This document shows, piece after piece, positions 1-61,980 of a stretch of 64,000 nt of DNA (position 1 is its first letter; each line of letters opens with the position of its first letter). A program made the position numbers and the translations under genes. The DNA comes from Eledone cirrhosa (taxonomy: Eukaryota): the NCBI GenBank assembly GCA_964016885.1, contig OZ024740.1, positions 424,018,001-424,082,000 of the forward strand. The letters are read 5' to 3'. The notes below the pieces were generated by a model. The model was not told the DNA's origin. It worked only from the letters and a program-made list of their open reading frames with translations, and searched no databases.

Positions 1-12435
<12,435 letters not shown>

Positions 12436-15400
12436 TCATCATCATCATTTTACGTCCGCTTTTCCCTGCTTGCAAGGGTGGGACGGGTCTTATTCAGCAC
12501 AGCATCTCTCCACTCGTCACGGTCCCTCGTCATCTCCACCGTGAGCTTCAATGATCTGAGGTCTGTTCTCACCACCTCCGCCCATGTTTTTCGTGGTCTA
12601 CCTCTACCACGTCTTCCTTCAACTGGCATTTCCTGGCACTTCTTCACCCATCGGTCATCCTCCATGCGCATCACATGTCCATACCACCTCAGTCTCCTCT
12701 CCCGTACACTACATTCTATCCCTCTCAGACACAGTTTCTCTCTCAACACATTTATGCTGGGTTGTTCACGCACATTTACACTGCACATCCAACGGAGCAT
12801 GCTTGCCTCATTTCTCTCCAGCCGTCGCATATCCTCTGCGGTTGCTGCCCATGTCTCACTACCATGCAGCATCGCGCTCCTCACACAGGCATCATACAAC
12901 CGGCCTTTCGTACGCAGGGAGAAACCCTTCTTCGTCAACAGAGGAAGCAGCTCCCTAAACTTCTTCCAACCCGTCCTTATTCTAGATACTATGGCCTCGG
13001 AACACCTTCCTCCCATGCTAATCTGATCTCCTAGGTACCGGAAGCTATCCACCACTTCTATAGCGCCCTCTCGCATTTGAAAAATGTGTCTATCAGTGCG
13101 ACTTCTACTGTCTAATTTCCCTGTACATCTACTGCATACATATTTCTTCCTACCTGTTAGTTTGCCTGCTATCCCGCTACATCTCTTGTGTACCCAGGAC
13201 CTGCATTGTGTGCATTTTATAGAGTATAGAATTTATGCCAGTTCCTTTTTTGCATATCGAACATGGCCATTTCTCTGACGGAATCTGTGTTTTGTCCTCT
13301 TTTCTACTCATCAACACTTTTGTCTTAGCTAGATTTACTCTCAGTCCTCTTGCTTCCAACTGCTGTTTCCATAGCCGGAATTTATTCTCTAGCTCCTCTA
13401 CTGATTCTGCTATAAGAGCCAGATCGTCAGCATAGAGAAGTTCCCATGGACAGCCAGTCTTAAACTCCTCTGTTATGGCTTGGAGGACTATAATGAACAA
13501 GAGCGGGCTGAGGACCGAACCCTGATGTACTCCTACTTGTATCTGGAATTCCTCACTAAACTCCATTCCTACCCTGACTTTACTGAGAGTACCTCTGTAC
13601 AAAGTTTGCACTGTCCTCACAAGCCATTCCTCAACACCTAGCTTCCTTAGGGACCACCAGATGACAGATCGGGGTACCCTATCAAAGGCCTTCTCTAGGT
13701 CAACAAAGGCTAAGTATAGTGGCTTATTCTTCTCTAAGAACCTCTCTTGCATTTGTCTCACCAAGAAGAGGGCATCTGTTGTACTCTTCCCAGGCACAAA
13801 ACGAAACTGCATCTCATCTAGTTTGACCCTTTCTCTAATTAGTTGTGCTAAAATCCTTTCTGCCACTTTCATAACCTGATCTATCAGTTTTATACCCCTA
13901 TAATTGCTCCTCTCCAAAGCATCCCCTTTACCTTAGTAGCAATTTATGAGAATACTGCTGCACCAGTCTTTGGGTATGACACCACCATATATAGCCTGAT
14001 TGATTATGCGTGCAACCAGTTTAGTGCCTACGTCCCCTGATGCCTTCAGCATCTCAGCAACTATTCCCGATGGTCCGGCCTCCTTACCATTTTTCATTTC
14101 CCTAATCGCCTCTTGGACCCTATATTCGTCAATCTCAATAGCTGGTCCCTCTGTCGGATCTACCAAGGGTAATTTCTCTCTCTCCCATTCGTTCTCCACA
14201 TTCATCAGTCTCTCATAATGACATTTCCAGACCTCCTTTTTCTGGTCATTTGTGACACTAAGTACACCGGCATCATCCCGGACACATTTATCTTCAACAA
14301 CATCCTGATTTGCATTGACACACTGCCTTGCAATGTGGAACACCGCACGCCTCTGATCTTCCCGTCGCAGAACATTGGCAAACCTTCTACTCTCTGCCTC
14401 CCTGCGTGCTAAGTACACCTGACGTCTAGCTTCTCTCTTAGTGGCTGTATATTCTTCCCTACTCCCACCCTTTTTCCAAGCCTTCCATGCTAGTCTTTTG
14501 TCTCTAATAGCCTTATCTACTGTGCTGTTCCACCACCAGGTCACTCTCTGTCTGGTTGGAGCTCTGCTCCAGCCACAGGTTTCATCAGTAGCCTGCAGCA
14601 AGTTGTCACGTAAGAACTTCCAGTTATTATCTATGTCATACGTCTCTAAATCGTCTTCTTTTTCGTCATATACATCTTGAAGGGCTTTCCTAAATTTGAA
14701 TTTTAGTGAAAGGTCTTTTAGCTTCCAGACCTTTCTTCTCCACACCTTCCTATATGTCTCATTCCATCTCATGCTTACTGAGATATCACTAACAACTAAC
14801 CTATGCTGTGGGGTACATTCTTCCCCAGGGTATGCCTTGGTATTAGACACTATCTGCCTGTCCCGCTGCCTAACTAGCAGGAAGTCAATCTGGCTTATGT
14901 GCTCACCAGATTTGTAGGTTATTAGGTGATTGGCAGGTTTCTGGAAGTTTGTGTTGCAAATAGTCAATGTACTTGCATCACAAAATTCAAGAAGTCTCAC
15001 TCCTTCTTCATTTCTTGAACCGTAACCGTGCCCACCATGTACCCCAGTGTAACCATCCTGGAGCTGTCCAACATGACCATTGAAGTCTCCTGCTAGCATA
15101 ACGATGTCTCCGTCCTCTGTCATTGTGGTTGTTTGCAAAAGTTGCTCATAAAAGCAGTCTTTCTCATCTTTGCCTAGGCCTGCTTGGGGAGCATAGACCG
15201 AGATGATTGTCAGTAGTCTCCTACCTACAACTAATCTAAGCTTAATTATTCGATTACTAACTCGAACTACCTCTATTGTCTTATTGATCCATTTCTCAGC
15301 CAGGAAAATGCCTATTCCCCCTAACCCATCATCCTTACCTATCCAGAATAGCTTATAGCTAAGACGCTTGCCTACGACTAGTCTCACAGAGGCACCTCTC

Positions 15401-15690
15401 CATCTCACCTCTTGCACGCAGCACACATCCACCTGCCTTCTCTCCAGCATCTCCGCTATTTCAGCAGATCTACCTCTGAGAGTGCCAACGTTAAGTGTTG
15501 CAACTCTGAGATGCGACGTCTTCATATTTTTCTATGCTGTTTTGTTGCTGTGCTGATAAGCTTTTTGGCATTGATACACTGGTTGGATGCCCTTCCCAGC
15601 ATGGACTGGGTGCTTTTATTTGGCCACCAGCACTAGAGAGGATGTCTTACTAGACTCAAGGGCCCTCTCTACCCCTCCATTTTACAGCAT
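12436..15690 (-). mobile_element. RTE-clade LINE, family A, copy A1, apparently full-length (5' end may extend to about 16419)
   Basis: APE endonuclease (TLNVGTL, VQEVRW, GDFNGH, SQIDF, QHRLV) plus RT ([25 protein letters not shown]) and RTE C-terminus ([18 protein letters not shown]). (ATG)n tail at 12436-12448. 5'UTR motif GGAAGGGCATCCA near 15585-15597. Confidence 0.95.
12450..15525 (-). pseudogene. RTE APE-RT ORF (about 1020 aa when repaired) broken by one nonsense codon and one frameshift
   Basis: Compared with copy A2: AAA>TAA at 13933-13935 (in frame with the next ORF) and a 7-nt tandem duplication (ttctata/ctctata) at about 13218-13231. Confidence 0.92.
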
Positions 15691-15699
15691 GGTCATTAA

Positions 15700-16419
15700 A
15701 AAAAAAAATAAAAAAAACAACTTATTGACACGACTCACACACCAATACTCATGCATACAAACCACAACCACACATACCAACACTCATTCATGCATACAAT
15801 CACACACACCACTCACAAACACATATATATATACATATATTACCGACAGTACTGATACAAAATCAAAATCAAAATCGTCAAAATCACTATCATGTCAACT
15901 GTTGACCTTTCCCAGTCCAGTTCCGCTTGTATATAATAACAATAACAATAATAATTGTTTGCTTTACGCTGGTAATGGCGGTGGTGGATGGTGTCAGTGT
16001 GGTGGTGGTGGTTGGTCAGTGATGGTGGTGGCATTTGTTGGTGCTGTAGTTGTTATTGTAGTTGTCGTTGTTGCTGTTGTTGTTGTCCTTCATTTCACTG
16101 CTGCTGTTGCTGCAGACAATGGTGTTGATGCTGTTATTGCTGTCGCATATATACAAATACATACACACACACACATTCAACACAGACGATGGTGTTGTTG
16201 CTGTTGTTGTTGTTGTTGCTGCTGTTGTTGTTGTAGTTGTTGGTGTGTTGAAATCTGGTCGCATCCACTGAGATATACATATACACATATGTATATACAC
16301 ATACATACATCAAAAGAGAGTCAGCAGTATGTCAACAGGGGACAGAACAGCGACCTTAGAGTAATGTGGTGATGGTGGGGGGGGGGGGGGGTGTAGTCGT
16401 TATTGTTATTGTGGTGGCG
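15700..16419. repeat. Low-complexity CA/GTT/GCT/GGT and poly-G region, possibly the 5'UTR of A1
   Basis: Mixed simple repeats lying between the A1 5'UTR motif and the next (TA)n tract. Confidence 0.6.
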
Positions 16420-16479
16420 TATATATGGTATATATATATATATATAGTATATATATATATATATATAGTATATATATAT

Positions 16480-16689
16480 TAGAAAGTGAGGTATTTTTTA
16501 CAAAATGAAAAATAACCAAGGTGTCCTACACTAGTGAAAGTATAAAGAAAAAGAGATGAAATCGAAAATGCAACTGAAGTCTTATTTAAAAAAAAAATAT
16601 ATATATTTATTTGGTTCCTTTACCTGTTTCGCAGTTCTTCTGCTTTTCAAAAGGTGAGTTGAGATGGAGGGTCTGTGGTTTTTCTCACA
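16480..16689 (-). mobile_element. Penelope-like terminal-repeat fragment with a decayed hammerhead motif
   Basis: Minus strand reads cctt-TTGAAAA-gcag-aagaa-ctgc-GAAA-cagg-TA-aagg (16617-16654), then AATAAA. Ends ...ttctaata into (TA)n. Confidence 0.5.
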
Positions 16690-16709
16690 TATATATATAT
16701 ATATATATA

Positions 16710-16757
<48 letters not shown>

Positions 16758-16871
16758 TATATATATATATATATATATATATGGTATATATATATATGGT
16801 ATATATATATATATATATATGGTATATATATATATGGTATATATATATATATATATGGTATATATATATAT

Positions 16872-16900
<29 letters not shown>

Positions 16901-16904
<4 letters not shown>

Positions 16905-18923
16905 GGTTGTTCCGAAGGAATGGCGTAGCAGCATCATCGTTAACTGCTATAAGGGAAAAGGAGATGCCCTAGATAGGAGTAACTATAGAGGCATTAAATT
17001 AATCGACCAGGTCATGAAGGTCACGGAAAAAGTAATAGCGCAACTAATCAGAGAGAGAATTGATCTAGATGAAATGCAGTTCGGGTTTGTGTCAGGCAAA
17101 AGTACCACAGACGCTCTTTTCATTGTACGACAACTACAGGAGAAGTACCTAGCTAAAAGTAAACCCCTATACTTAGCTTTTGTCGACTTGGAGAAAGCCT
17201 TCGACAGAGTCCCCCGTTCCATTATCTGGTGGTCTCTTAGAAAACTAGGTGTTGACGAATGGCTTGTGAGAGCTATACAAGCCATGTATAAAGAAACAGT
17301 CAGTAAGGTTAGAATTAACAACGAATATAGTGAAGAGTTTAGCGTAAAAGTTGGTGTCCATCAGGGCTCTGTACTTAGCCCCCTACTATTTATTATTGCC
17401 CTTCAGGCTATAACAGAGGAGTTCAAGACCGGCTGCCCATGGGAACTCCTATACGCAGATGATCTAACGCTCATAGCTGAATCAATGACCGAACTAGAGA
17501 AGAAATTCCAAACGTGGAAGCACGGCCTAGAATCAAAAGGCCTTAAAATTAACCTGGCTAAGACTAAAGTTCTAGTTTGTAGGAAAGAAAATAAGGCGGC
17601 GGTCCCATCGGGGAAATGGCCATGCTCAGTGTGTAGGAAAGGCGTAGGTAGAAACTCCATTTTATGTCCCAAATGCAAAGTATGGGTGCATAAAAGATGT
17701 AGTGGGATCACAGGTAAGCTAACTAAGAACATAGATTTTACATGTGGCCGGTGCTCTGGTGCAATAAGTAGCAGCAAGTGCCCACAAAATACTAGCTCCT
17801 TCAACTGCGCAGAGGGTTCTATAGAAATAGTGGATAGCTTCCGTTATCTGGGTGACAAAATCAGCAGTGGGGGAGGGTGCTCTGAAAGTACAGTAGCTAG
17901 AGTCAGAACTGGATGGAAAAAGTTCAGAGAGCTTATACCACTATTAGCCGCTAGAGGGTTCTCCCTAAAAATGAAAGGCAGGTTATACGATGCCTGCATA
18001 CGAACAGCAATGCTGCATGGCAGTGAGACCTGGGCATTGTGTGCAGAGGATATACGCAGACTAGAGAGGAACGAAGCTTGCATGCTCCGCTGGATGTGCA
18101 ATAGTAATATACGTGAACGGCAAAGCATAAACGAACTAAGGAAAAAATTAGAAATAAGAGGGATCAGATGTTGTTTACTCGAGAGAAGGCTACGTTGGTA
18201 CGGTCACGTGATGCGCATGAAAGACGACAGCTGTATAACAAAGTGCAGGGCAATAAAGATAGACGGTAGCCACGGAGTAGGCAGACCCAGAAAAACATGG
18301 GACGAGCTGATAATTTCCGACCTCACACGCTTACACCTCTCCAAGACAATGTCACTGGACCGAGACCTTTGGCGGTACTCAGTAATAGAGAAGACCCGCC
18401 TTACCTAAATACAAAGTAAAAACCTACTACAGTCAGTAGGCACCTCTATCAAAACACACCCCCGTCCCACCACCTCCACCTCCACCCCACCCACACCGCC
18501 CCTTTCAATGTAAAGTTATGTTGGCCCCACAACATCCAGGCCGAAACAAATGAGATCGTGTAGGTGTCACGACAAAAAACACACAGTCCACGCTGTAAAT
18601 GTGGCCGTGTAGGCAACACGGTAAAAACCTCCCGGCCCCACACTGTAAATGTGGTTGGTGTTAGGAAGGGCATCCAGCTGTAGAAAACCCGCCAGACAGT
18701 CCACGCTGTAATGTGGCCGTGTAGGCAACACGGTAAAAACCTCCCAGCCCCACACTGTAAATGTGGTTGGTGTTAGGAAGGGCATCCAACTGTAGAAAAC
18801 CCGCCAGACAGTCCTATGCGAGCAAGACAACCACTCTTGCCTCAAGTGGGAAAACCCCCGTCCAAACCCATGCAAGCGTGGAACACGGACGCTAAACCTG
18901 ATGATGATGATGATGATGATGAT
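16901..18923 (+). mobile_element. RTE LINE family B, copy B1, 5'-truncated (RT + PHD + C-terminus open to 18408, 3'UTR, (GAT)n tail)
   Basis: ORF 16819..18408 from GVVPKEW onward. 3'UTR carries a tandem duplication of about 113 bp (18583-18814). Both flanks are (TA)n. Confidence 0.96.
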
Positions 18924-18928
18924 ATATA

Positions 18929-18970
<42 letters not shown>

Positions 18971-18994
18971 TATATATATATGGTATATATATAT

Positions 18995-19027
<33 letters not shown>

Positions 19028-19044
19028 TATGTATATATATATAG

Positions 19045-19075
<31 letters not shown>

Positions 19076-19139
19076 TATATATATAGTATATATATATATA
19101 TGCTATGTATATATATATATAGTATATATATATATATGC

Positions 19140-19214
<75 letters not shown>

Positions 19215-19239
19215 GTATATATATATATATATAGTATAT

Positions 19240-21030
19240 ATCATCATCATCATCATCATCATTAACGTTTAACGTCCGTGTTCCACGCTTGCATGGGTTT
19301 GGACGGGGGTTTTCCCACTTGAGGCAAGAGTGATTGTCTTGCTCGCATAGGACTGTCTGGCAGGTTTTCTACAGTTGGATGCCCTTCCTAACACCAACCA
19401 CATTTACAGTGTGGGTCTGGGAGGTTTTTACTGTGTTGCCTACATGGCCACATTACAGCGTGGACTGTGTTTTTTTGTCGTGACACCTACACGATCTCAT
19501 TTGTTTCGGCCTGGATGGTGTGGCACCAACATAACTTTACATAGAAGGGGGCGGTGTGGATGGGGTGGGGGTGGTGGGACGGGGGTGTATTTTGTTAGAG
19601 ATGCCTACTGACTGTAGTAGGTTTTACTTTGTATTTAGGTAAGGCGGGTCTTCTCTATTACTGAGTACCGCCAAAGGTCTCGGTCCAGTGACATTGTCTT
19701 GGTGAGGTGTAAGTGTGTGAGGTCGGAGTTTATCAGCTCGTCCCAGGTTTTTCTGGGTCTGCCTATTCCGTGGCTACCGTCTATCTTTATTGCCCTGCAC
19801 TTTGTTATACAGCTTTCGTCCTTCATGCGCATCACATGACCATACCAACGTAGCCTTCTCTCTAGTAAACAACATCTGATCCCTCTTATTTCTAATTTTT
19901 TCCTTAGTTCGTTCATGCTTTGTCGTTCACGTATATTACTATTACACATCCAGCGGAGAATGCAAGCTTCGTTTCTCTCTAGTCTGCGTATATCCTCTGC
20001 ACACAATGCCCAGGTCTCACTGCCATGCAACATTGCTGTTCGTATGCAGGCATCGTACAGCCTGCCTTTCATTTTTAGGGAGAACCCTTTAGCGGCTAAT
20101 AGTGGTATAAGCTCTCTGAACTTTTTCCACCCAGTTCTGACTCTAGCTACTGTACTTTCAGAGCACCCTCCCCCACTGCTGATTTTGTCACCCAGGTAAC
20201 GGAAGCTGTCCACTATTTCTATAGAACCCTCTGCGCAGTTGAAAAAGGTAGTATTTGGTGGGCACTTGCTGCTACTTATTGCCCCAGAACACCGGCCACA
20301 TGTAAAATCTATGTTCTTAGTTAGCTTACCTGTGATCCCACTACATCTTTTATGCACCCAAACTTTGCATTTGGGACACAAAATGGAATTTCTACCTACG
20401 CCTTTCCTACACTCTGCGCATGGCCACTTCCCGGAGGGGACCGCCGCCTTATTTTCTTTCTTACAAACTAGAACTTTAGTCTTAGCCAGGTTAATTTTAA
20501 GGCCTTTTGATTCTAGGCCGTGCTTCCATGTTTGGAATTTCTTCTCTAGCTCGGCCATTGATTCAGCTATGAGCGTTAGATCATCTGCGTATAGGAGTTC
20601 CCATGGGCAGCCTGTCTTGAACTCCACTGTTATAGCCTGGAGGGCAATAATAAATAGTAGGGGGCTAAGAACAGAGCCCTGATGAACACCAACTTTTACA
20701 CTAAACTCTTCACTATATTCGTTGTTAATTCTAATCTTGCTGACTGTTTCTTTATACATGGCTTGTATAGCTCTCACAAGCCATTCATCAACACCTAGTT
20801 TTCTAAGAGCCCACCAGATAATGGAACGGGGGACTCTGTCGAAGGCCTTCTCCAAGTCGACGAAAGCTAGGTATAGGGGCTTACTTTTAGCTAGGTACTT
20901 CTCCTGTAGTTGTCGTACAATGAAAAGTGCGTCTGTGGTACTTTTTCCTGACACAAACCCGAACTGCATTTCATCTAGATCAATTCGCTCTCTGATTAGT
21001 TGCGCTATTACTTTTTCCGTGACCTTCATG
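19240..21030 (-). mobile_element. RTE LINE family B, copy B2, 5'-truncated
   Basis: ORF 19635..21030 (MKVTEKV...KTRLT). (CAT)n at 19240-19262. Same 3'UTR as B1. Confidence 0.96.
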
Positions 21031-21750: not shown

Positions 21751-21881
21751 ATACTTTGGGAGGGTCATGTTGCCAATAAGAAACAGACGCACCAGTTGCT
21801 TTCACTTCAATTTATTAATTATAAATTTATAAATTTCTGGTTGGTTGGTTGGTTCCACAACCAGATAGTTGTTTATATATT

Positions 21882-21924
21882 GTCATATTTCTTTCGTCAC
21901 ACGCTCTGTGACCTCTTCAGTGAC
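21882..21924 (-). ncRNA. Minimal type I hammerhead ribozyme motif (inverted pLTR arm of PLE1)
   Basis: gtca-CTGAAGA-g-gtcaca-gagcg-tgtgac-GAAA-gaaa-TA-tgac. Confidence 0.65.
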
Positions 21925-22317
21925 TGGGGATTCCTTACTTTGTTTCTGTGCCTCCCCTTTGTTCTGTCCTACGCCATTTTGTTTCTGTGTGTGTGTTGTG
22001 TGCTCAGAAAAGACGCAATGTTTAGACGAATTACAGAGGCAATAAACATAAAAGAATTACAACCAAAATTAAATAGAAAATATGAGTGGAACCGCAACAT
22101 CACAACTTACAATTAAGGACAAAATGAAAACACACACACACATAGAACAAACAACCAACCAGTAACATGTAATTAAACAAATAAATAAATAAACATAAAC
22201 ACACACAGACACCCGGATGTGGTGCATGCGCAGACTGAGCACACAACACACACACAGAAACAAAATGGCGTAGGACAGAACAAAGGAGAGGCACAGAAAC
22301 AAAGAAAGGAATCCCCA

Positions 22318-22360
22318 GTCACTGAAGAGGTCACAGAGTGTGTGACGAAAGAACTATGAC
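22318..22360 (+). ncRNA. Minimal type I hammerhead ribozyme motif (PLE1 pLTR)
   Basis: gtca-CTGAAGA-g-gtcaca-gagtg-tgtgac-GAAA-gaac-TA-tgac: 4-bp stem I, 6-bp stem II, 2-bp stem III. Confidence 0.75.
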
Positions 22361-22584
22361 AATATATAAACAACTATCTAGTTGTGGAACCAACCAACCA
22401 ACCAGAAATTTATAAATTTATAAATTTATTATAATAAATTGAAGTGGAAGCAACTGGTGCGTGTGTTTCTTATTGGCAACATGACCCTCCCAAAGTATAA
22501 CAATATCGGTTTCAACACACGATTTCAGATAAAGAATCTTGGTAAACAAATTCAGAAACGAAATATATATATATATATATATAT

Positions 22585-23159: not shown

Positions 23160-23746
23160 ATGAAAGTCAATAGCTGTATAACAAAGTGCAGGGCAATAAA
23201 GATAGACGGTAGTCACGGAATAGGCAGACCTAGAAAAACCTGGGACGAGCTGATAAACTCCGACATCACACACTTACACCTCTCCAAGACAATGTCACTG
23301 GACCGAGACTTTTGGCGGTACTCAGTAACAGAGAAGACCCGCCTTACCTAAATATATAGTAAAACCTACTCCAGCCAGTAGGCATCTCTAACAAAATACA
23401 CCCCGTCCCACCACCACCACCCCCACCCCATCCACACCACCCCGTTCTATGTAAAGTTATGTTGGTGCCGCGCCATCCAGGCCGAAACAAATGAGATCGT
23501 GTAGGTGTCACGACAAAAAAACACACAGTACACGCTGTAATGTGGCCGTGTAGGTAACACGGTAAAAACCTCCCAGTCCACACTGTAAACGTGGTTGGTT
23601 TTAGGAAGGGCATCCAACTGTAGAAAACCTGCCAGACAGTCCTATGCGAGCAAGACAATCACTCTTGCCTCAAGTGGGACTACCCCCGTCCAAACCCATG
23701 CAAGCGTGGAACACGGACGTTAAACGTTGATGATGATGATGATGAT
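23154..23746 (+). mobile_element. RTE family B, short 3' fragment (B3)
   Basis: MRMKVNSC...KTRLT* (23154-23351), then 3'UTR and (GAT)n. Confidence 0.95.
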
Positions 23747-25153: not shown

Positions 25154-25489
25154 GGAGGCATATGGCTTAGTGTTTAGAGCATTGGCCTTGCAATCGAAAG
25201 GTTGTGAGTTCAATTCTCGGACCGGGTGATGTGTTGTTTCCTTGAGCAAGAGGGTTTATTTCACATTGCTCCAGTTTACTCAGCTGTAGAAATGAGATGG
25301 TAGGGACTGATGTCCCTATCATTCCACTGCATAGTGGTCGTGGAGGTGCCACGGCAAAAAAGCACCCAGCACTCACTGTAAATGAGGTTGGTGTTAGGAA
25401 GGGCATCCAGCTGTAGAAATCAATCCAGAATCAATTCCTGTCCCACCCTTGCAAGCAGAGGAGTGCGCACGTAAAATGATGATGATGAT
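25154..25489 (+). mobile_element. tRNA-derived SINE (RTE-dependent), copy 1 of a head-to-tail pair
   Basis: A box TGGCTTAGTG, B box GAGTTCAATTC, body GTTTCCTTGAGCAAG, module GTTAGGAAGGGCATCCAGCTGTAGAAA, RTE-A 3' end, (ATG)n. Confidence 0.92.
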
Positions 25490-25490
25490 A

Positions 25491-25823
25491 CTCACACAGG
25501 GCTTAGTGGTTAGTGCATTGGCCTTGCAATCAAGAGATCGTGAGTTCAGTTCTCGGACCGGGTGATATGTTGTTTCCTTGAGCAAGAGACTTTATTTCAC
25601 GTTGCTCCAGTTTACTCAGCTGTAGAAATGAGATGATAGGGACTGGGTTCCCTATCATTCCACTGCAAAATGGTCGTGGAGGTGCCACGGAAAAATTTAC
25701 CCAGCACTCACTGTAAATGAGGTTGGTGTTAGGAAGGGCATCCAGCTGTAGAAATCAAGCCAGAATCAGTTCCCGTCCCACCCTTGCAAGCAGGGAAAAG
25801 CGGACGTAAAATGAAATGATGAT
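25491..25823 (+). mobile_element. tRNA-derived SINE, copy 2
   Basis: Same structure as copy 1. Starts right after the tail of copy 1. Confidence 0.92.
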
Positions 25824-25916: not shown

Positions 25917-27040
25917 AATGGAAAATTTGAACAGGATCAAAACAGAGAGGCAGTACAACAAATGTTTATTAATTTCACGCTCTCGAGAGTGGGGTGGTGG
26001 TGGGGAACGACGTTTCGAGCATAAGCCCTTCCTCAGGTGAGAAGTGTGTGGGAAGAGAGTTCAAAGGGTGTGTAGGGGAGTGGTGGAGAGACATATAGCG
26101 AAAAGGGGGTGGGAGGAAACGGTGCAAATGAAATTAAAAATAAAAATAAATGATCAAAATAAAATGAAATGAAATAAAAATAAATATAAAAGCATGATCA
26201 AAATAAACTGAAATTAAAAAGGGGTAAAACAGGCGGTGGAAGGGTGTGGGGTGTGTAGGGGTGGTGGAGTGGGGAGAGGGAGACGGGGGTGTGTATGAGC
26301 GGGGAGGGCTGAAGGTGGTGTGTGTGTGTAGGTGTACGTGTGTGCGTATGTGAAAGCAAGGGTTGGGGGGAAGAACGGGGTTGCATATTCAGGAAGAGGT
26401 GTGTGTGGGATGGGGTGTAGGTCGGAGTGTCTGTGCGTGTGTGGATAGAGGGGTGGGGGGAGAGGAATCCGGAGGCTGAAGGTGTAAATATGTGGTGGAA
26501 AGCACGTGTGTGTGGGGTTTAAGCATGTTGTAGGTGTAGGTGGCGTGTGGGAGAAAAACATTTTTTTGGGTGTGTGTGTGGGTGAGTTATATAGGGGATT
26601 CCGTAAGAGGATGTGGTTGAAATGTTGGCAAACTCCTATGATGTTAGTAGATTCCACGGTGGTCAAGTTCCACATACGAGTATTCCATGAAGAGATGGTC
26701 AGAGGAGAGATGTGGGGTGCGCGCGCAACAGGAAGTGGTCAAGGCGGTGGGAGTGCTGTGTGTCTGTTTGTGCTGGGAGGTGGTCAGAGGGCATAGCAAC
26801 AGTCGGGTGGAATGGTAAAGGGGCGAGGATGGGTAGGTGTGAAAGTTGGAGTGAAGAGGGTGTGTGTGTGTATTAGTAGAGGTGTTAGTGGGATGAGTGC
26901 GTGTGGAGAAAGGGTGTGGGTGGAGCGGGGAGAGAAGGGTGTGGGGGTCGATGGAGGGAGTGGTGTACTGGTGTGTGTGTAGTTTGATGAAGGGGGTGTT
27001 AGTGGGTGTTAGTATATGGGAGGTGGGGAAAGGGTTGAAA
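25917..27040 (-). mobile_element. Penelope-like element PLE3a (C/A-rich 3' region with hammerhead motif and AATAAA)
   Basis: 25917-26098 is the reverse complement of 49539-49722. Minus strand CTGAGGA-a-gggc-ttat-gctc-GAAACGTC at 26009-26036. Both copies end ttttccat|tata. Confidence 0.6.
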
Positions 27041-27066: not shown

Positions 27067-27584
27067 ATCATCATCATCATCATCAACATCAACTTTTAAC
27101 GTCCGTGTTCCACGCTTGCATGGGTTTGGACGGGGGTTTTCCCACTTGAGGCAAGAGTGATTGTCTTGCTCGCATAGGACTGTCTGGCAGGTTTTCTACA
27201 GTTGGATGCCCTTCCTAACACCAACCACATTTACAGTGTGGGTCTGGGAGGTTTTTACCGTGTTGCCTACACGGCCACATTACAGCGTGGACTGTGTGTT
27301 TTTTTGTCGTGACACCTACACGATCTCATTTGTTTCGGCCTGGATGGTGTGGCACCAACATAACTTTACATAGAAGGGGGCGGTGTGGATGAGGTGGGGG
27401 TGGTGGGACGGGGGTGTATTTTGTTAGAGATGCCTACTGACTGTAGTAGGTTTTACTTTGTATTTAGGTAAGGCGGGTCTTCTCTATTACTGAGTACCGC
27501 CAAAGGTCTCGGTCCAGTGACATTGCTTGGTGAGGTGTAAGTGTGTGAGGTCGGAGTTTATCAGCTCGTCCCAAGTTTTTCTGG
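27067..27584 (-). mobile_element. RTE family B, short 3' fragment
   Basis: (CAT)n, B-type 3'UTR and the last ORF codons. Confidence 0.95.
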
Positions 27585-54414: not shown

Positions 54415-57031
54415 CCCTCCCTCCCTCCCCCATGAAGAATGCACCTCCCAACATAGACTGATAATTAGCGACCTCATAGTCAGGACGAGACGTACTCGAC
54501 AGCAGAAGAGGACTATCCTCAGGAGAAAAATATGGAAGCTAAAGGACCCCACAGCCAGAAATATATTTCAAAGCATATTACTTGATGCTTTCGACAGTAA
54601 GGAAGAACATTTAGAGTCGGACAATATAGAGGGACAGTGGGAATTCCCGAAAGCAAACTTGCTGATGGCGACAGACGAAGTCGGTGGCTGGAGCAGGCCT
54701 GTAGGCAGGAGGAGAGTAACATGGTGGTGGAACAGTAAGGTGGAGGGGTCAATTAAGGCCAAAAAGCAGGCTTGGAAAGTATGGCGGGATGGGGGAAGTA
54801 GAGAAGACTATCAAGTGGCCAGGAGGGAAGCTAGGAGACAAGTGTACTTAGCAAGAAGGGAAGCAGAGGAAAGAAAGTTCAAGCATGTTCTACAACGCGA
54901 GGACCAAAAACGTGAGGTGTTCAGGATTGCTAGGCAATGCGTCAAGGAAAACCGTGATATTGTCGGGGAGAAGTGTGTACTTAATGATGACGGCGTACTT
55001 GCCATCACCGACGCTGATAAGAATGTAGCTTGGAAGTGTCACTATGAAAGGCTACTAAATGAGGAGAATAAATGGGAGAAAGACAGTCTCCCCCACATCG
55101 ACCCAATAGAGGGACCAGCAGTGTTAGTCGAGGGGAGTATAATAAGTAAGGCAATCAAGGATATGAAGACGGGTAAGGCGGCTGGTCCTTCGGAAATAGT
55201 TGCTGAGATGTTGAAGGCATCTGGCACGGTGGGACACACCATGGTCACCCGCATAGTTAACCAAGTCGTACAGAATGGGGTTGTTCCGAAGGACTGGCAT
55301 AGCAGCATCATCGTTAACTGTTATAAGGGTAAAGGAGACGCCCTAGATAGGAGTAACTATAGAGGCATTAAATTAATCGACCATGTCATGAAGGTCACGG
55401 AAAAAGTAATAGCGCAACTAATCAGAGAGAGAATTGACCTAGATGAAATGCAGTTCGTGTTTGTGTCAGGCAAAAGTACCACAGACGCTCTTTTCATTGT
55501 ACGACAACTACAGGAGAAGTACCTAGCTAAAGGTAAACCCCTCTACTTAGCTTTTGTCGACTTGGAGAAAGCCTTCGACAGAGTCCCCCGCTCCATTATC
55601 TGGTGGGCTCTTAGAAAACTAGGTGTTGACGAATGGCTTGTGAGAGCTATACAAGCCATGTATAAAGAAACAGTCAGCAAGGTTAGAATTAACAACGAAT
55701 ATAGTGAAGAGTTTAGCGTAAAAGTTGGCGTCCATCGGGGCTCTGTTCTCAGCCCCCTACTATTTATTATTGCCCTTCAGGCTATAACAGAGGAGTTCAA
55801 GACCGGCTGCCCATGGGAGCTCCTATACGCAGACGACCTGACACTCATAGCTGAATCAATGGCCGAGCTAGAGAAGAAATTCCAAACATGGAAGCACGGC
55901 CTAGAATCAAAAGGGCTTAAAATTAACATGGCTAAGACTAAAGTTCTAGTTTGTAGGAAAGAAAATAAGGCGGCGGTCCCTTCTGGGAAATGGTCATGCT
56001 CAGTGTGTAGGAAAGGCGTAGGTAGAAACTCCATTTTATGTCCTAAATGCAAAGTATGGGTGCATAAAAAATGTAGTGGGATCACAGGTAAGCTAACTAA
56101 GAACATAGATTTTACATATGACCGGTGCTCTGGTGCAATAAGTAGCAGCAAGTGCCCACAAAATACTAGCTCCTTCAACTGCGCAGAGGGTTCTATAGAA
56201 ATAGTGGACAGCTTCCGTTACCTGGGTGACAAAATCAGCAGTGGGGGAGGGTGCTCCGAAAGTACAGTAGCTAGAGTCAGAACTGGATGGAAAAAGTTCA
56301 GAGAGCTTATACCACTATTAGCCGCTAAAGGGTTCTCCCTAAAAATGAAAGGCAGGTTGTATGATGCCTGCATACGAACAGCAATGTTGCATGGCAGTGA
56401 GACCTGGGCATTGTGCGCAGAGGATATACGCAGACTAGAGAGGAACGAAGCTTGCATGCTCCGCTGGATGTGTAATAGTAATATACGTGAACGGCAAAGC
56501 ATAAACGAACTAAGGAAAAAATTAGAAATAAGAGGGATCAGATGTTGTTTACTTGAGAGAAGGCTACGTTGGTACGGACACGTGATGCGCATGAAAGTCG
56601 ATAGCTGTATAACAAAGTGCAGGGCAATAAAGATAGACGGTAGCCACGGAATAGGCAGACCTAGAAAATCCTGGGACGAGCTGATAAACTCCGACCTCAC
56701 ACACTTACACCTCTCCAAGACAATGTCACTGGACCGAGACCTTTGGCGGTACTCAGTAATAGAGAAGACCCGCCTTACCTAAATACATAGTAAAACCTAC
56801 TACAGCCAGTAGGCATCTCTAACAAAATACACCCCCGTCCCACCACCCACACCCCCATCCACACTAACCCCTCCTATGTAAAGTTTTGTTGGTGCCACAA
56901 CATCCAGGCCGAAACAAATGAGATCGTGTAGGTGTCACGACAAAAAAACACACAGTCCACGCTGTAATGTGGCCGTGTAGGCAACACGGTAAAAACCTCC
57001 CAGTCCCACACTGTAAATGTGGTTGGTGTTA
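54414..57031 (+). mobile_element. RTE LINE family B, copy B5, 5'-truncated, ORF open to 56782, lacking its 3' terminus
   Basis: [11 protein letters not shown]...KTRLT*. The 3'UTR stops at GTTGGTGTTA with no tail. Confidence 0.96.
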
Positions 57032-58073: not shown

Positions 58074-59028
58074 ATCATCGTCATCATCATCATCACCGTT
58101 TAACGTCCGTGTTCCACGCTTACATGGGTTTGGACGGGGGTAGTCCCACTTGAGGCAAGAGTGATTGTCTTGCTCGCATAGGCCTGTCTGGCAGGTTTTC
58201 TACAGTTGGATGCCCTTCCTAACACCAACCACATTTACAGTGTGGGTCTGGGAGGTTTTTACCGTGTTGCCTACACGGCCACATTACAGCGTGGACTGTG
58301 TGTTTTTTTGTAGTGACACCTACACGATCTCATTTGTTTCGGCCTGGATGGTGTGGCACCAACACAACTTTACATAGAACGGGGTGGCGTGGATGGGTTG
58401 GGGTGGTGGGACGGGGGGGGGGGTATTTTGTTAGATGCCTACTGGCTGTAGTAGGTTTTACTATGTATTTAGGTAAGGCGGTTCTTCTCTGTTACTGAGT
58501 ACCGCCAAAGGTCTCGGTCCAGTGACATTGTCTTGGAGAGGTGTAAGTGTGTGAGGTCGGAGTTTATCAGCTCGTCCCAGGTTTTTCTAGGTCTGCCTAT
58601 TCCGTGGCTACCGTCTATCTTTATTGCCCTGCACTTTGTTATACAGCTATCGACTTTCATGCGCATCACGTGTCCATACCAACGTAGCCTTCTCTCGAGT
58701 AAACAACATCTGATCCCTCTTATTTCTAATTTTTTCCTTAGTTCGTTTATGCTTTGCCGTTCACGTATATTACTGTTACACATCCAGCGGAGCATGCAAG
58801 CTTCGTTCCTCTCTAGTCTGCGTATATCCTCTGCACACAATGCCCAGGTCTCACTGCCATGCAACATTGCTGTTCGTATGCAGGCATCGTACAACCTGCC
58901 TTTCATTTTTAGGGAGAACCCTTTAGCAGCTAATAGTGGTATAAGCTCTCTGAACTTTTTCCAACCAGTTCTCACTCTAGCTACTGTACTTTCAGAGCAC
59001 CCTCCCCCACTGCTGATTTTATCACCCA
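58074..59028 (-). mobile_element. RTE LINE family B, copy B6, 5'-truncated
   Basis: [10 protein letters not shown]...KNRLT*, then 3'UTR and (CAT)n. Confidence 0.95.
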
Positions 59029-59422: not shown

Positions 59423-59769
59423 GGAGGCACATGGCTTATTGGTTAGAGCATTGGCCTTGCAATCGAAAGGTTGTGTGTTCAATTCTCAGACCGGGTGATG
59501 TGTTGTTTCCTTGAGCAAGACACTTTATTTCACATTGCTCCAGTTTACTCAGCTGTAGAAATGAGATGATAGGGACTGGGGTCCCTATCATTCCACTGCA
59601 AAGTGGTCGTGGAGGTGCAACGGCAAAAAAGCACCCAGCACTCACTGTAAATGAGGTTGGTGTTAGGAAGGGCATCCAGCTTTAGAAATCAAGCCAGAAT
59701 CAGTTCCCTTCCCACCTTTACAAGCAGGGAAAAGTGGACATAAAATGAAATGATGATGAAATGATGATA
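59423..59769 (+). mobile_element. tRNA-derived SINE, same family as 25154
   Basis: GGAGGCACATGGCTTATTGGTTAGAGC head, shared module and RTE-A tail. Confidence 0.92.
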
Positions 59770-61730: not shown

Positions 61731-61980
61731 ATCGTGTAGGTGTCACGACAAAAAAACACAGTCCACGCTGTAATGTGGCCGTGTAGGCAACACGGTAAAA
61801 ACCTCCCAGACCCACACTGTAAATGTGGTTGGTGTTAGGAAGGGCATCCAACTGTAGAAAACCTGCCAGACAGTCCTATGCGAGCAAGACAATCACTCTT
61901 GCCTCAAGTGGGACTACCCCCGTCCAAACCCATGCAAGCATGGAACACGGACGTTAAACGTTGATGATGATGATGATGAT
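61731..61980 (+). mobile_element. RTE family B, 3'UTR-only copy
   Basis: ATCGTGTAGGTGTCACGAC...GGACGTTAAACGT(TGA)n. Confidence 0.93.

What the first reader, a model, noticed from the sequence alone, without database searches (positions are those of the whole stretch)
15582..19630. An RTE 5'UTR module reappears as the 3'UTR of families B and C: LINEs that appear to have annexed a bipartite SINE-like tail
Seen: the A1 5'UTR (15582-15633, minus) has AAAAGCACCCAG...GGAAGGGCATCCAAC. The same module (AAAAAGCACCCAG...GTTAGGAAGGGCATCCAGCTGTAGAAA) sits in the 3'UTR of C (40185-40317), in diverged form in B (18560-18800 and others) and in the SINE body. Family A has no 3'UTR (ORF ends [13 protein letters not shown] at the tail). 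B (KTRLT*) and C (TRPPMGTC*) diverge at exactly that point and then add a module-plus-new-tail of roughly 300-400 nt. Known: RTE-mobilised non-autonomous elements are often bipartite fusions of RTE 5' and 3' sequences. Inference: B and C gained their 3' ends by capturing such an element, which reverses the usual LINE-to-SINE direction of sequence flow.
Basis: partly seen in the sequence, partly recalled or inferred. Interest (0 to 1): 0.7.

Follow-up and report, generated by a model that had tools for sequence, protein, structure and literature searches.

The report
Retrotransposon front module relocated to tail
In this animal genome one lineage of RTE jumping genes carries at its tail end a conserved sequence block that its sister lineage carries at its front end, most likely from a single ancient copying accident, and the short parasitic repeat (SINE) nearby likely took the block from that tail rather than donating it.

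Summary
Observation confirmed. The module is in the family-A 5'UTR (27 of 30 loci intact; A1 has a ~19-nt deletion) and in the 3'UTR of B and C. Long B and C copies lack it at the 5' end. B and C did not gain it separately. With older families E and F they form one long-tailed clade, sister to short-tailed A and D (one change on the ORF tree, 100/100), and the module tree mirrors the ORF tree. The long tail is the derived state: published hagfish RTEs have the core in the 5'UTR and a short 3' end, and 22 of 120 outgroup proteins end in the tail peptide. The window's SINE is a recipient: its module nests inside C (96%), 4 of 25 copies keep C's tail, and the rest switched to A's. No free bipartite donor was shown; the best candidate was truncated 3'UTRs of F. 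Net result: a 5'-to-3' relocation of a deeply conserved RTE element, probably by template switching; donor and function are open. Earlier scan notes on this genome cover the module's fold, its 48-bp satellite and the 5' arrays, but not the relocation.

The parts
12444..16419 (-). Family A RTE copy A1: 5'-truncated long 5'UTR, single APE-RT-PHD ORF (ATG 15525, stop 12450, broken by a stop near 13933 and a frameshift); tail hairpin inside the ORF end, then (ATG)n
   Evidence: domains of the family from L109
15577..15635 (-). Module in the A1 5'UTR, with a ~19-nt internal deletion relative to the family
16912..18898 (+). Family B copy, 5'-truncated; stop at 18408; 3'UTR with C-rich spacer, two tandem modules (about 18603-18700 and 18715-18812), linker and tail
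19263..21023 (-). Family B copy, 5'-truncated; stop at 19635; one module (about 19350-19445)
23166..23727 (+). Family B 3' fragment
25164..25488 (+). SINE: tRNA-like head (judged by eye; ARAGORN finds no tRNA), body, C-type module, A-type tail
25495..25812 (+). SINE, second copy; last 41 nt identical to the A tail
27092..27577 (-). Family B 3' fragment
37444..39950 (+). Family A copy A2, 5'-truncated, no 3'UTR
40074..41168 (-). Family C copy; stop at 40356; 3'UTR with two pseudoknot-compatible units and core (40165-40317), linker and tail
46744..49486 (+). Family B copy with one module
51400..52605 (-). Family C copy, one-unit variant
54430..57031 (+). Family B copy cut inside its module
58096..59022 (-). 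Family B 3' fragment
59428..59744 (+). SINE, third copy
61731..61961 (+). Family B fragment of 3'UTR only (a truncated LINE that looks like a bipartite element)

Best explanation
One RTE lineage of this genome (B, C and older E, F) carries the module at its 3' end and not at its 5' end, its sister lineage (A, D) has the reverse, and this most likely arose once, when a cassette of 5'UTR module plus a second tail was joined behind the ORF of the common ancestor. Shown: the either-or placement, one change on the ORF tree, the congruent module tree, and the SINE module nested in C. Inferred: the join was made during target-primed reverse transcription, when the RT primed on a short RNA made of module plus tail (a bipartite RTE derivative) and jumped to the 3' end of a full-length LINE RNA. 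The new distal hairpin then became the RT handle, and the old tail inside the ORF end decayed. The lineage also has a new 5'UTR, with tandem arrays in B and C and no module; the order of the two events is unknown. Later a tRNA-head SINE likely took C's module, linker and tail, then switched to A's tail at a 5-nt microhomology. The module's job is untested. It is probably a structured cis-element kept by selection, since it persists and even multiplies in all long-tailed families.
For: Placement: no module in the 5'UTR of 8 of 8 long B copies or 3 of 3 C copies that reach the ORF start; 4 of 4 long A copies have it 5' only. Of 36 distinct ORF starts, 7 of 7 A-like and 14 of 16 D-like have it 53-220 nt upstream, and 0 of 13 B/C-like within 700 nt. 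None of 24 scored old long-lineage 5' ends has it inside the shared 5'UTR. Single origin: the DNA tree of 44 ORF ends needs one long/short change, 100/100; F is basal in the long clade (33 rows); B-C identity is 76% in the ORF end and 84% in core, linker and tail; module identities are SINE-C 0.96, C-E 0.91, B-C 0.86, E-F 0.82, F-D5' 0.80, C-A5' 0.69. [quoted passage not shown] SINE direction: of 25 copies, 4 have the old-C linker and tail and 21 the A tail; the same head and body carry other 3' ends in 20 of 27 hits in 600 kb; 28 of 54 A-tail matches start at one base, 27 of them SINE junctions. 3' accretion recurred: F copies carry two successive module-linker-tail blocks.
Against: No free bipartite donor was shown. 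Family N looked like one (0 of 25 with an ORF end upstream), but a 5'-anchored search tied it to ORF ends in 3 of 15 loci, so the same may hold for N2 (0 of 24 distinct loci with a contiguous ORF end). The tree root falls between the two clades, so polarity rests on outgroups; the 120 outside proteins come without DNA, and 98 of them do not match the tail-peptide pattern. The decayed old tail at the ORF end is only weakly detectable (C 207 and 39 of 2000 shuffles; E 1 and 614 of 2000). The module alignment is short (113 columns) and many forks are unsupported. A-like and D-like 5' loci were mostly found with queries that contained the module; L127, L164, L189 and L243 were not. Only 13 of the 24 old long-lineage 5' ends share 276 nt or more upstream. 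Pseudoknot covariation is not above shuffles (57 of 500). About 1.7 Mb of a 3-Gb genome was examined, and searches return only the best 40 candidates.
Confidence: 0.62

Rival explanations
1. Same single, derived 3' extension, but with no short-element intermediate. A head-to-tail LINE dimer or read-through RNA was internally deleted, or the RT jumped within or between full-length RNAs, so that a LINE's own 5'UTR module came to lie between two tails.
For: It gives the same product. No free donor was found, and family N turned out to be LINE 3'UTR. F shows serial duplication of the whole 3' block, each copy starting with a tail-like hairpin. Modules duplicate in tandem readily (1-3 copies in B; 48-nt arrays).
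Against: It needs two joins, whereas bipartite RTE derivatives are common ready-made units (PMC5786205, PMC7245038). N2, ORF-less so far, keeps 5'UTR-type flanks and lies between the 5' and 3' modules in identity (0.83 to D5', 0.78 to F).
Confidence: 0.25
2. One reading: B and C each annexed a SINE-like tail related to the SINE in the window, so sequence flowed from SINE to LINE.
For: SINE and C modules are 96% identical, and 4 of 25 SINE copies have C's linker and tail.
Against: C's 3'UTR descends from E and F along the ORF tree. The SINE shares C-specific variants, including the two-unit form, and nests among C copies. The SINE's head and body exist with other 3' ends. B's module is only 0.83 identical to the SINE's.
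Confidence: 0.05
3. The long 3'UTR with module is ancestral in this host, and the A/D lineage lost it (and kept or regained the module at the 5' end).
For: The root lies between the two clades, so the tree alone cannot tell gain from loss. The long form is old: F copies are about 75% identical to the query.
Against: Outside RTEs have the core 5' and the tail in or right at the ORF end. The distal tail of C still reads as the ORF-end peptide, as expected of a duplicate of a coding tail.
Confidence: 0.08

Closest known systems
Bipartite non-autonomous RTE elements and RTE-derived SINEs (Kojima 2018, PMC5786205; hagfish SINE2-9/2-10_EBu and SINE1-1_EBu, Kojima 2020, PMC7245038)
   Same: A 5'UTR segment fused to a 3' tail. 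[quoted passage not shown] SINE tail exchange is described there, as seen here for the window SINE.
   Different: Here the bipartite unit forms the 3'UTR of autonomous, protein-coding LINEs that lack the module at their own 5' end.
Ingi-3_AC and R4-1_ADi with RTE/Ceph-SINE-like sequence in their 5'UTR (PMC5786205)
   Same: An autonomous LINE has acquired a conserved RTE 5'UTR piece, possibly from a SINE, so SINE-to-LINE flow has a published precedent.
   Different: Those cases are in the 5'UTR, involve another conserved domain (the Ceph-type one), and replace no tail.
RTE-2_OV of Octopus vulgaris (PMC9115989, passages)
   Same: Single-ORF RTE whose microsatellite begins at the ORF end, the same short 3' layout as family A.
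   Different: No module-bearing 3'UTR is described in the passages seen; its sequence was not compared.
5' ribozymes of RTE elements (twister in Perere-3, PMC8501958 passages; HDV-like, as cited in PMC5786205)
   Same: In hagfish RTEs the core directly follows sequence that looks twister-like or HDV-like (recalled patterns, judged by eye, not tested). Here a pseudoknot-compatible unit takes that place.
   Different: No Rfam ribozyme match here, and truncated copies do not pile up at the module.
5'UTR replacement and monomer arrays in mammalian L1 (5'UTR replacement mentioned in PMC4758252; monomers recalled)
   Same: B and C have 5' ends unrelated to A's, built of tandem arrays (about 202 bp in B).
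   Different: Different clade, and here the lost 5' element survives at the 3' end.

Membership tests
RTE-clade LINE (families A, B, C) | Single long ORF with APE endonuclease and RT | tested here: met
   1022-1039 aa; Exo_endo_phos and RVT_1 above Pfam cut-offs, plus a PHD finger
RTE-clade LINE (families A, B, C) | RT phylogeny with named RTE references | tested here: inconclusive
   The tree used unnamed homologues only; resemblance to RTE-4_EBu was judged by eye from the supplement
RTE-clade LINE (families A, B, C) | Short 3' end with hairpin and microsatellite tail | tested here: met
   Met for A and D; B, C, E and F end in the same hairpin and (ATG)n but behind a 280-600 nt UTR
Bipartite RTE unit (3'UTR of B, C, E, F) | Contains a segment homologous to an RTE 5'UTR | tested here: met
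   0.68-0.80 identity to A and D 5' modules; core in hagfish RTE 5'UTRs
Bipartite RTE unit (3'UTR of B, C, E, F) | Ends in an RTE 3' tail | tested here: met
   0 of 2000 shuffles reach the score against A and D tails
Bipartite RTE unit (3'UTR of B, C, E, F) | Exists as an independent ORF-less family with its own 5' end | tested here: inconclusive
   Not met for N (LINE F 3'UTR); unresolved for N2 (variable 5' ends, no ORF found)
tRNA-head SINE with RTE tail (window SINE) | tRNA-derived head with A and B boxes | tested here: inconclusive
   Looks tRNA-like by eye; ARAGORN and Rfam give no hit
tRNA-head SINE with RTE tail (window SINE) | 3' tail shared with a partner LINE | tested here: met
   A tail in 21 of 25 copies and old-C tail in 4 of 25
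Self-cleaving ribozyme (twister, HDV-like, other Rfam families) | Match to a ribozyme covariance model | tested here: not met
   None at gathering score in the window; none at E up to 10 in the C, A or D modules
Self-cleaving ribozyme (twister, HDV-like, other Rfam families) | Cleavage in vitro | not testable with these tools
   Indirect only: 5' ends of truncated B and C copies are scattered
H-type pseudoknot (48-nt unit) | Two crossing stems with compensatory changes | tested here: inconclusive
   83% of cells paired against about 40% for slid controls; one pair takes four pair types; covariation reached by 57 of 500 shuffles (12 rows, one misaligned)

The most novel reading that the evidence does not exclude
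A cis-element conserved in RTE 5'UTRs from hagfish to this animal is needed by the RNA but works from either end. One lineage moved it behind the ORF by annexing a bipartite parasite RNA, which freed its 5' end for promoter replacement. The sister lineages would then be a natural swap experiment on the unexplained conserved RTE 5'UTR and SINE-body domains, and a case of a LINE rebuilt from its own parasite.
Probability: 0.3. Interest if true: 0.72.

Novelty: new variant of a known kind. Interest (0 to 1): 0.47.

Why it matters
Why RTE 5'UTR segments are so conserved, and why SINEs keep borrowing them, is an open question raised in PMC5786205. Two long-lived sister lineages with the same element at opposite ends make it testable: delete or move the module in an A and a C reporter. 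The case also warns that abundant 'bipartite SINEs' in this genome can be truncated 3'UTRs of long-tailed LINEs, which affects repeat annotation. It documents a three-step SINE history (head and body, then C's 3'UTR, then A's tail) with intermediates still in the genome. It remains retrotransposon natural history; no host function is indicated.

Tried and rejected
Family N as free donor: rejected after 3 of 15 5'-anchored loci ran into RTE ORF ends (L250, L253, L258); L252's upstream ORF end is an unrelated A insertion. Known RNA family or ribozyme: no Rfam match. Folding z-scores of four modules were weak (0.58 to -1.34). Self-cleavage in the 3'UTR: no pile-up of 5' ends; the pile at B +166 is the tandem-duplication junction. 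5'-3' complementarity in B: duplex of -38 kcal/mol, but alignment score 26 against a shuffle maximum of 30, and no covariation in an older B copy. The first relic-tail shuffle test was mis-sliced and was redone. The Bold_L129m row has a long branch, probably because my slice held non-ORF sequence. L318 was mis-oriented and left out of the count. Metagenome scan: 13 contigs hold the 22-nt core, none near an RTE ORF, so no outgroup architecture came from them. Sequencing runs: no RNA holder listed. The core was not found in the Kojima 2018 supplement text (figure S4 held almost no text) or in four PMC4758252 files (file 1 not searched). A BovB paper that I recall as reporting SINE pieces inside BovB ends is not held, so that precedent is unverified. 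Paper searches that returned no report of a module-bearing RTE 3'UTR; the library lacks most subscription journals and Repbase.
Full report
Setting. The window is G000:C1:424018001-424082000 of a 3.0-Gb animal genome. It is probably an octopus; that comes from earlier scan notes and my recall of the repeats, and was not tested. About 29 kb is simple repeat, with retrotransposon pieces in between. Self-comparison gives three LINE families and one SINE. Long genomic copies encode single proteins of about 1020-1040 aa with APE, RT and PHD domains. A shares 67-69% DNA identity with B and C, and B shares 75% with C.

Observation. The 13-nt core occurs 14 times against 0.36 by chance, at the places named. 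A1 carries a deletion of about 19 nt; 27 of 30 A 5' loci have the complete module. The module is about 95 nt: a 48-nt unit compatible with an H-type pseudoknot, a hairpin with a CTGTAAA loop, and the core. In A the stop codon lies within the terminal hairpin. In B and C the ORF ends at the homologous place and is followed by a C-rich spacer, one to three modules, a linker and a second copy of the tail.

Do B and C keep it at the 5' end? No. I fetched 8 long B, 8 long C and 4 long A regions. All 8 B copies and the 3 C copies that reach the ORF start have 5'UTRs without the module, most with tandem arrays (about 202 bp in B; about 98 bp in L102). All 4 A copies have it only at the 5' end. Of 36 distinct ORF starts among the held loci, 7 of 7 A-like and 14 of 16 older D-like have it 53-220 nt upstream, and 0 of 13 B/C-like do (two of these are truncated near the start). 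A search with an old long-lineage 5' end gave 25 loci, 24 scored. Seventeen have no module within 1.5 kb. Three hits inspected belong to separate insertions, and four lie more than 1.2 kb away, beyond the shared 5'UTR of at most 536 nt.

How many origins? ORF ends in the held loci (96 rows, some duplicated) fall into short and long classes. On a tree of 44 chosen ORF ends with the last 60 nt removed, the label changes once (100/100). With the oldest long family F added (33 rows), F is basal to B, C and E. The module tree (46 rows, 113 columns, many open forks) gives the 5' modules of A and D together with N2, then F, then E, B and C with the SINE. The 3' module was therefore inherited vertically from one event.

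Which state is ancestral? In a protein tree with 24 of 120 outside homologues, the host families form one clade (100), short and long are sisters (99 each), and the nearest outside protein ends TRPTHASMENGR. Broken copies were read with X at the breaks. The root alone cannot tell gain from loss. Three outside lines favour gain. First, 22 of 120 homologues end in the tail peptide, some reading through to KRTLKR. [quoted passage not shown] Third, the distal tail of C still translates TRLTHASVEERT*, and the B, C and E distal tails match the A and D ORF-end tails beyond all 2000 shuffles. The decayed tail at the ORF end of the long families is only weakly significant.

The donor. An evenly spaced 600-kb sample held 45 core-covering module hits in many contexts (output partly cut). 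An old family N of 48-nt units, module, linker and tail had no ORF end upstream in 25 of 25 loci and looked like the donor. A 5'-anchored pattern gave 15 loci, of which 3 run into an RTE ORF end and several others share their upstream 3'UTR. N is therefore truncated family F. F copies carry two successive module-linker-tail blocks (above the shuffle maximum in L250, L251 and L253, borderline in L247), so 3' accretion happened more than once. A second family, N2, has 140-nt units with the 5'UTR-type flank and a tail. No contiguous ORF end was found in 24 distinct loci, but the lesson of N makes that weak. Capture of a bipartite RNA and rearrangement of LINE RNA give the same product and cannot be separated here.

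The SINE. Its module is 0.96 identical to C's and nests among C copies. Of 25 copies, 4 keep the linker and tail of the older C subfamily and 21 have the A tail; one- and two-unit forms match C's. The switch to A's tail is at one base in 27 SINE junctions, at a CCCGT shared by old C and A. The same head and body carry other 3' ends in 20 of 27 hits in the 600-kb sample. This is ordinary LINE-to-SINE flow with tail exchange.

Function. There is no Rfam match. Truncation points do not cluster at the module. The core also occurs in 13 metagenome contigs of other origin, two of them behind a tRNA-like head by eye, none near an RTE ORF. Retention in every family examined at one end or the other suggests selection, but this is inference.

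Literature seen. PMC5786205: parts 1-4 of 5 of the text, supplement part 1 and term searches. PMC7245038: passages, plus supplement file 2 as passages and part 2. Passages only: PMC4758252, PMC4824008, PMC13282606, PMC9115989, PMC8501958. Bipartite RTE elements, SINE tail exchange and capture of RTE 5' sequence into other LINEs' 5'UTRs are published. Ten searches gave no report of an RTE lineage with this module in its 3'UTR; Repbase entries and unheld papers may describe these families.

Verdict. The feature is real and the gain is well supported. The more interesting result is the either-or position of a deeply conserved element in two sister lineages. New variant of a known kind; interest 0.47.

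Noticed in passing
L092-L098 and L099, L102, L103, upstream of the ORF: B 5' ends are arrays of a ~202-bp monomer, up to kilobases long; C 5' ends have different arrays (~98 bp in L102) and differ between subfamilies.
   Followed up: partly
window 15590-15600; L003, L030: Three of 30 A copies have ~19-20-nt deletions at the same place in the module hairpin, with slightly different breakpoints, as RT skipping across a hairpin would give.
   Followed up: no
L288-L305, about 1400-1660: Old short-lineage 5'UTRs carry tandem ~80-nt repeats resembling, by eye, the RTE-derived half of the Ceph domain, upstream of the module; modern A has lost them.
   Followed up: no
L093 oriented 4275-4304 and 3'UTR +91 to +126: B has a 5'-3' complementary stretch (predicted -38 kcal/mol), not above shuffles by alignment score and not covarying in an older copy.
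   Followed up: yes
L107:468-1433: A tandem array of the 48-nt module unit ends in a complete core; minisatellite growth from the module.
   Followed up: no
window 16912-21023: Two B copies sit tail to tail around a (TA)n tract; almost all retrotransposon copies in the window are flanked by TA-rich microsatellite.
   Followed up: no
window 15640-16419: The A 5'UTR is about 1.6 kb in the longest copies and contains an internal poly-T tract and microsatellite-like blocks conserved between copies.
   Followed up: partly
L334, L340, L332, L333, L337, L342, L343 (metagenome contigs): The 22-nt core occurs in repeats of other organisms, behind a tRNA-like head or behind an HDV-like-looking hairpin (by eye, recalled pattern).
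   Followed up: no
L105 near 4152-3925 and L111 near 7804-7616, minus strand: A more distant LINE family (35% protein identity at the C-terminus) that also ends right at its ORF end.
   Followed up: no
window 21759-22490, 25927-26103 with 49534-49710, 50942-51049 with 53259-53366: Inverted-repeat pairs unrelated to the RTEs, possibly ends of DNA transposons or MITEs.
   Followed up: no
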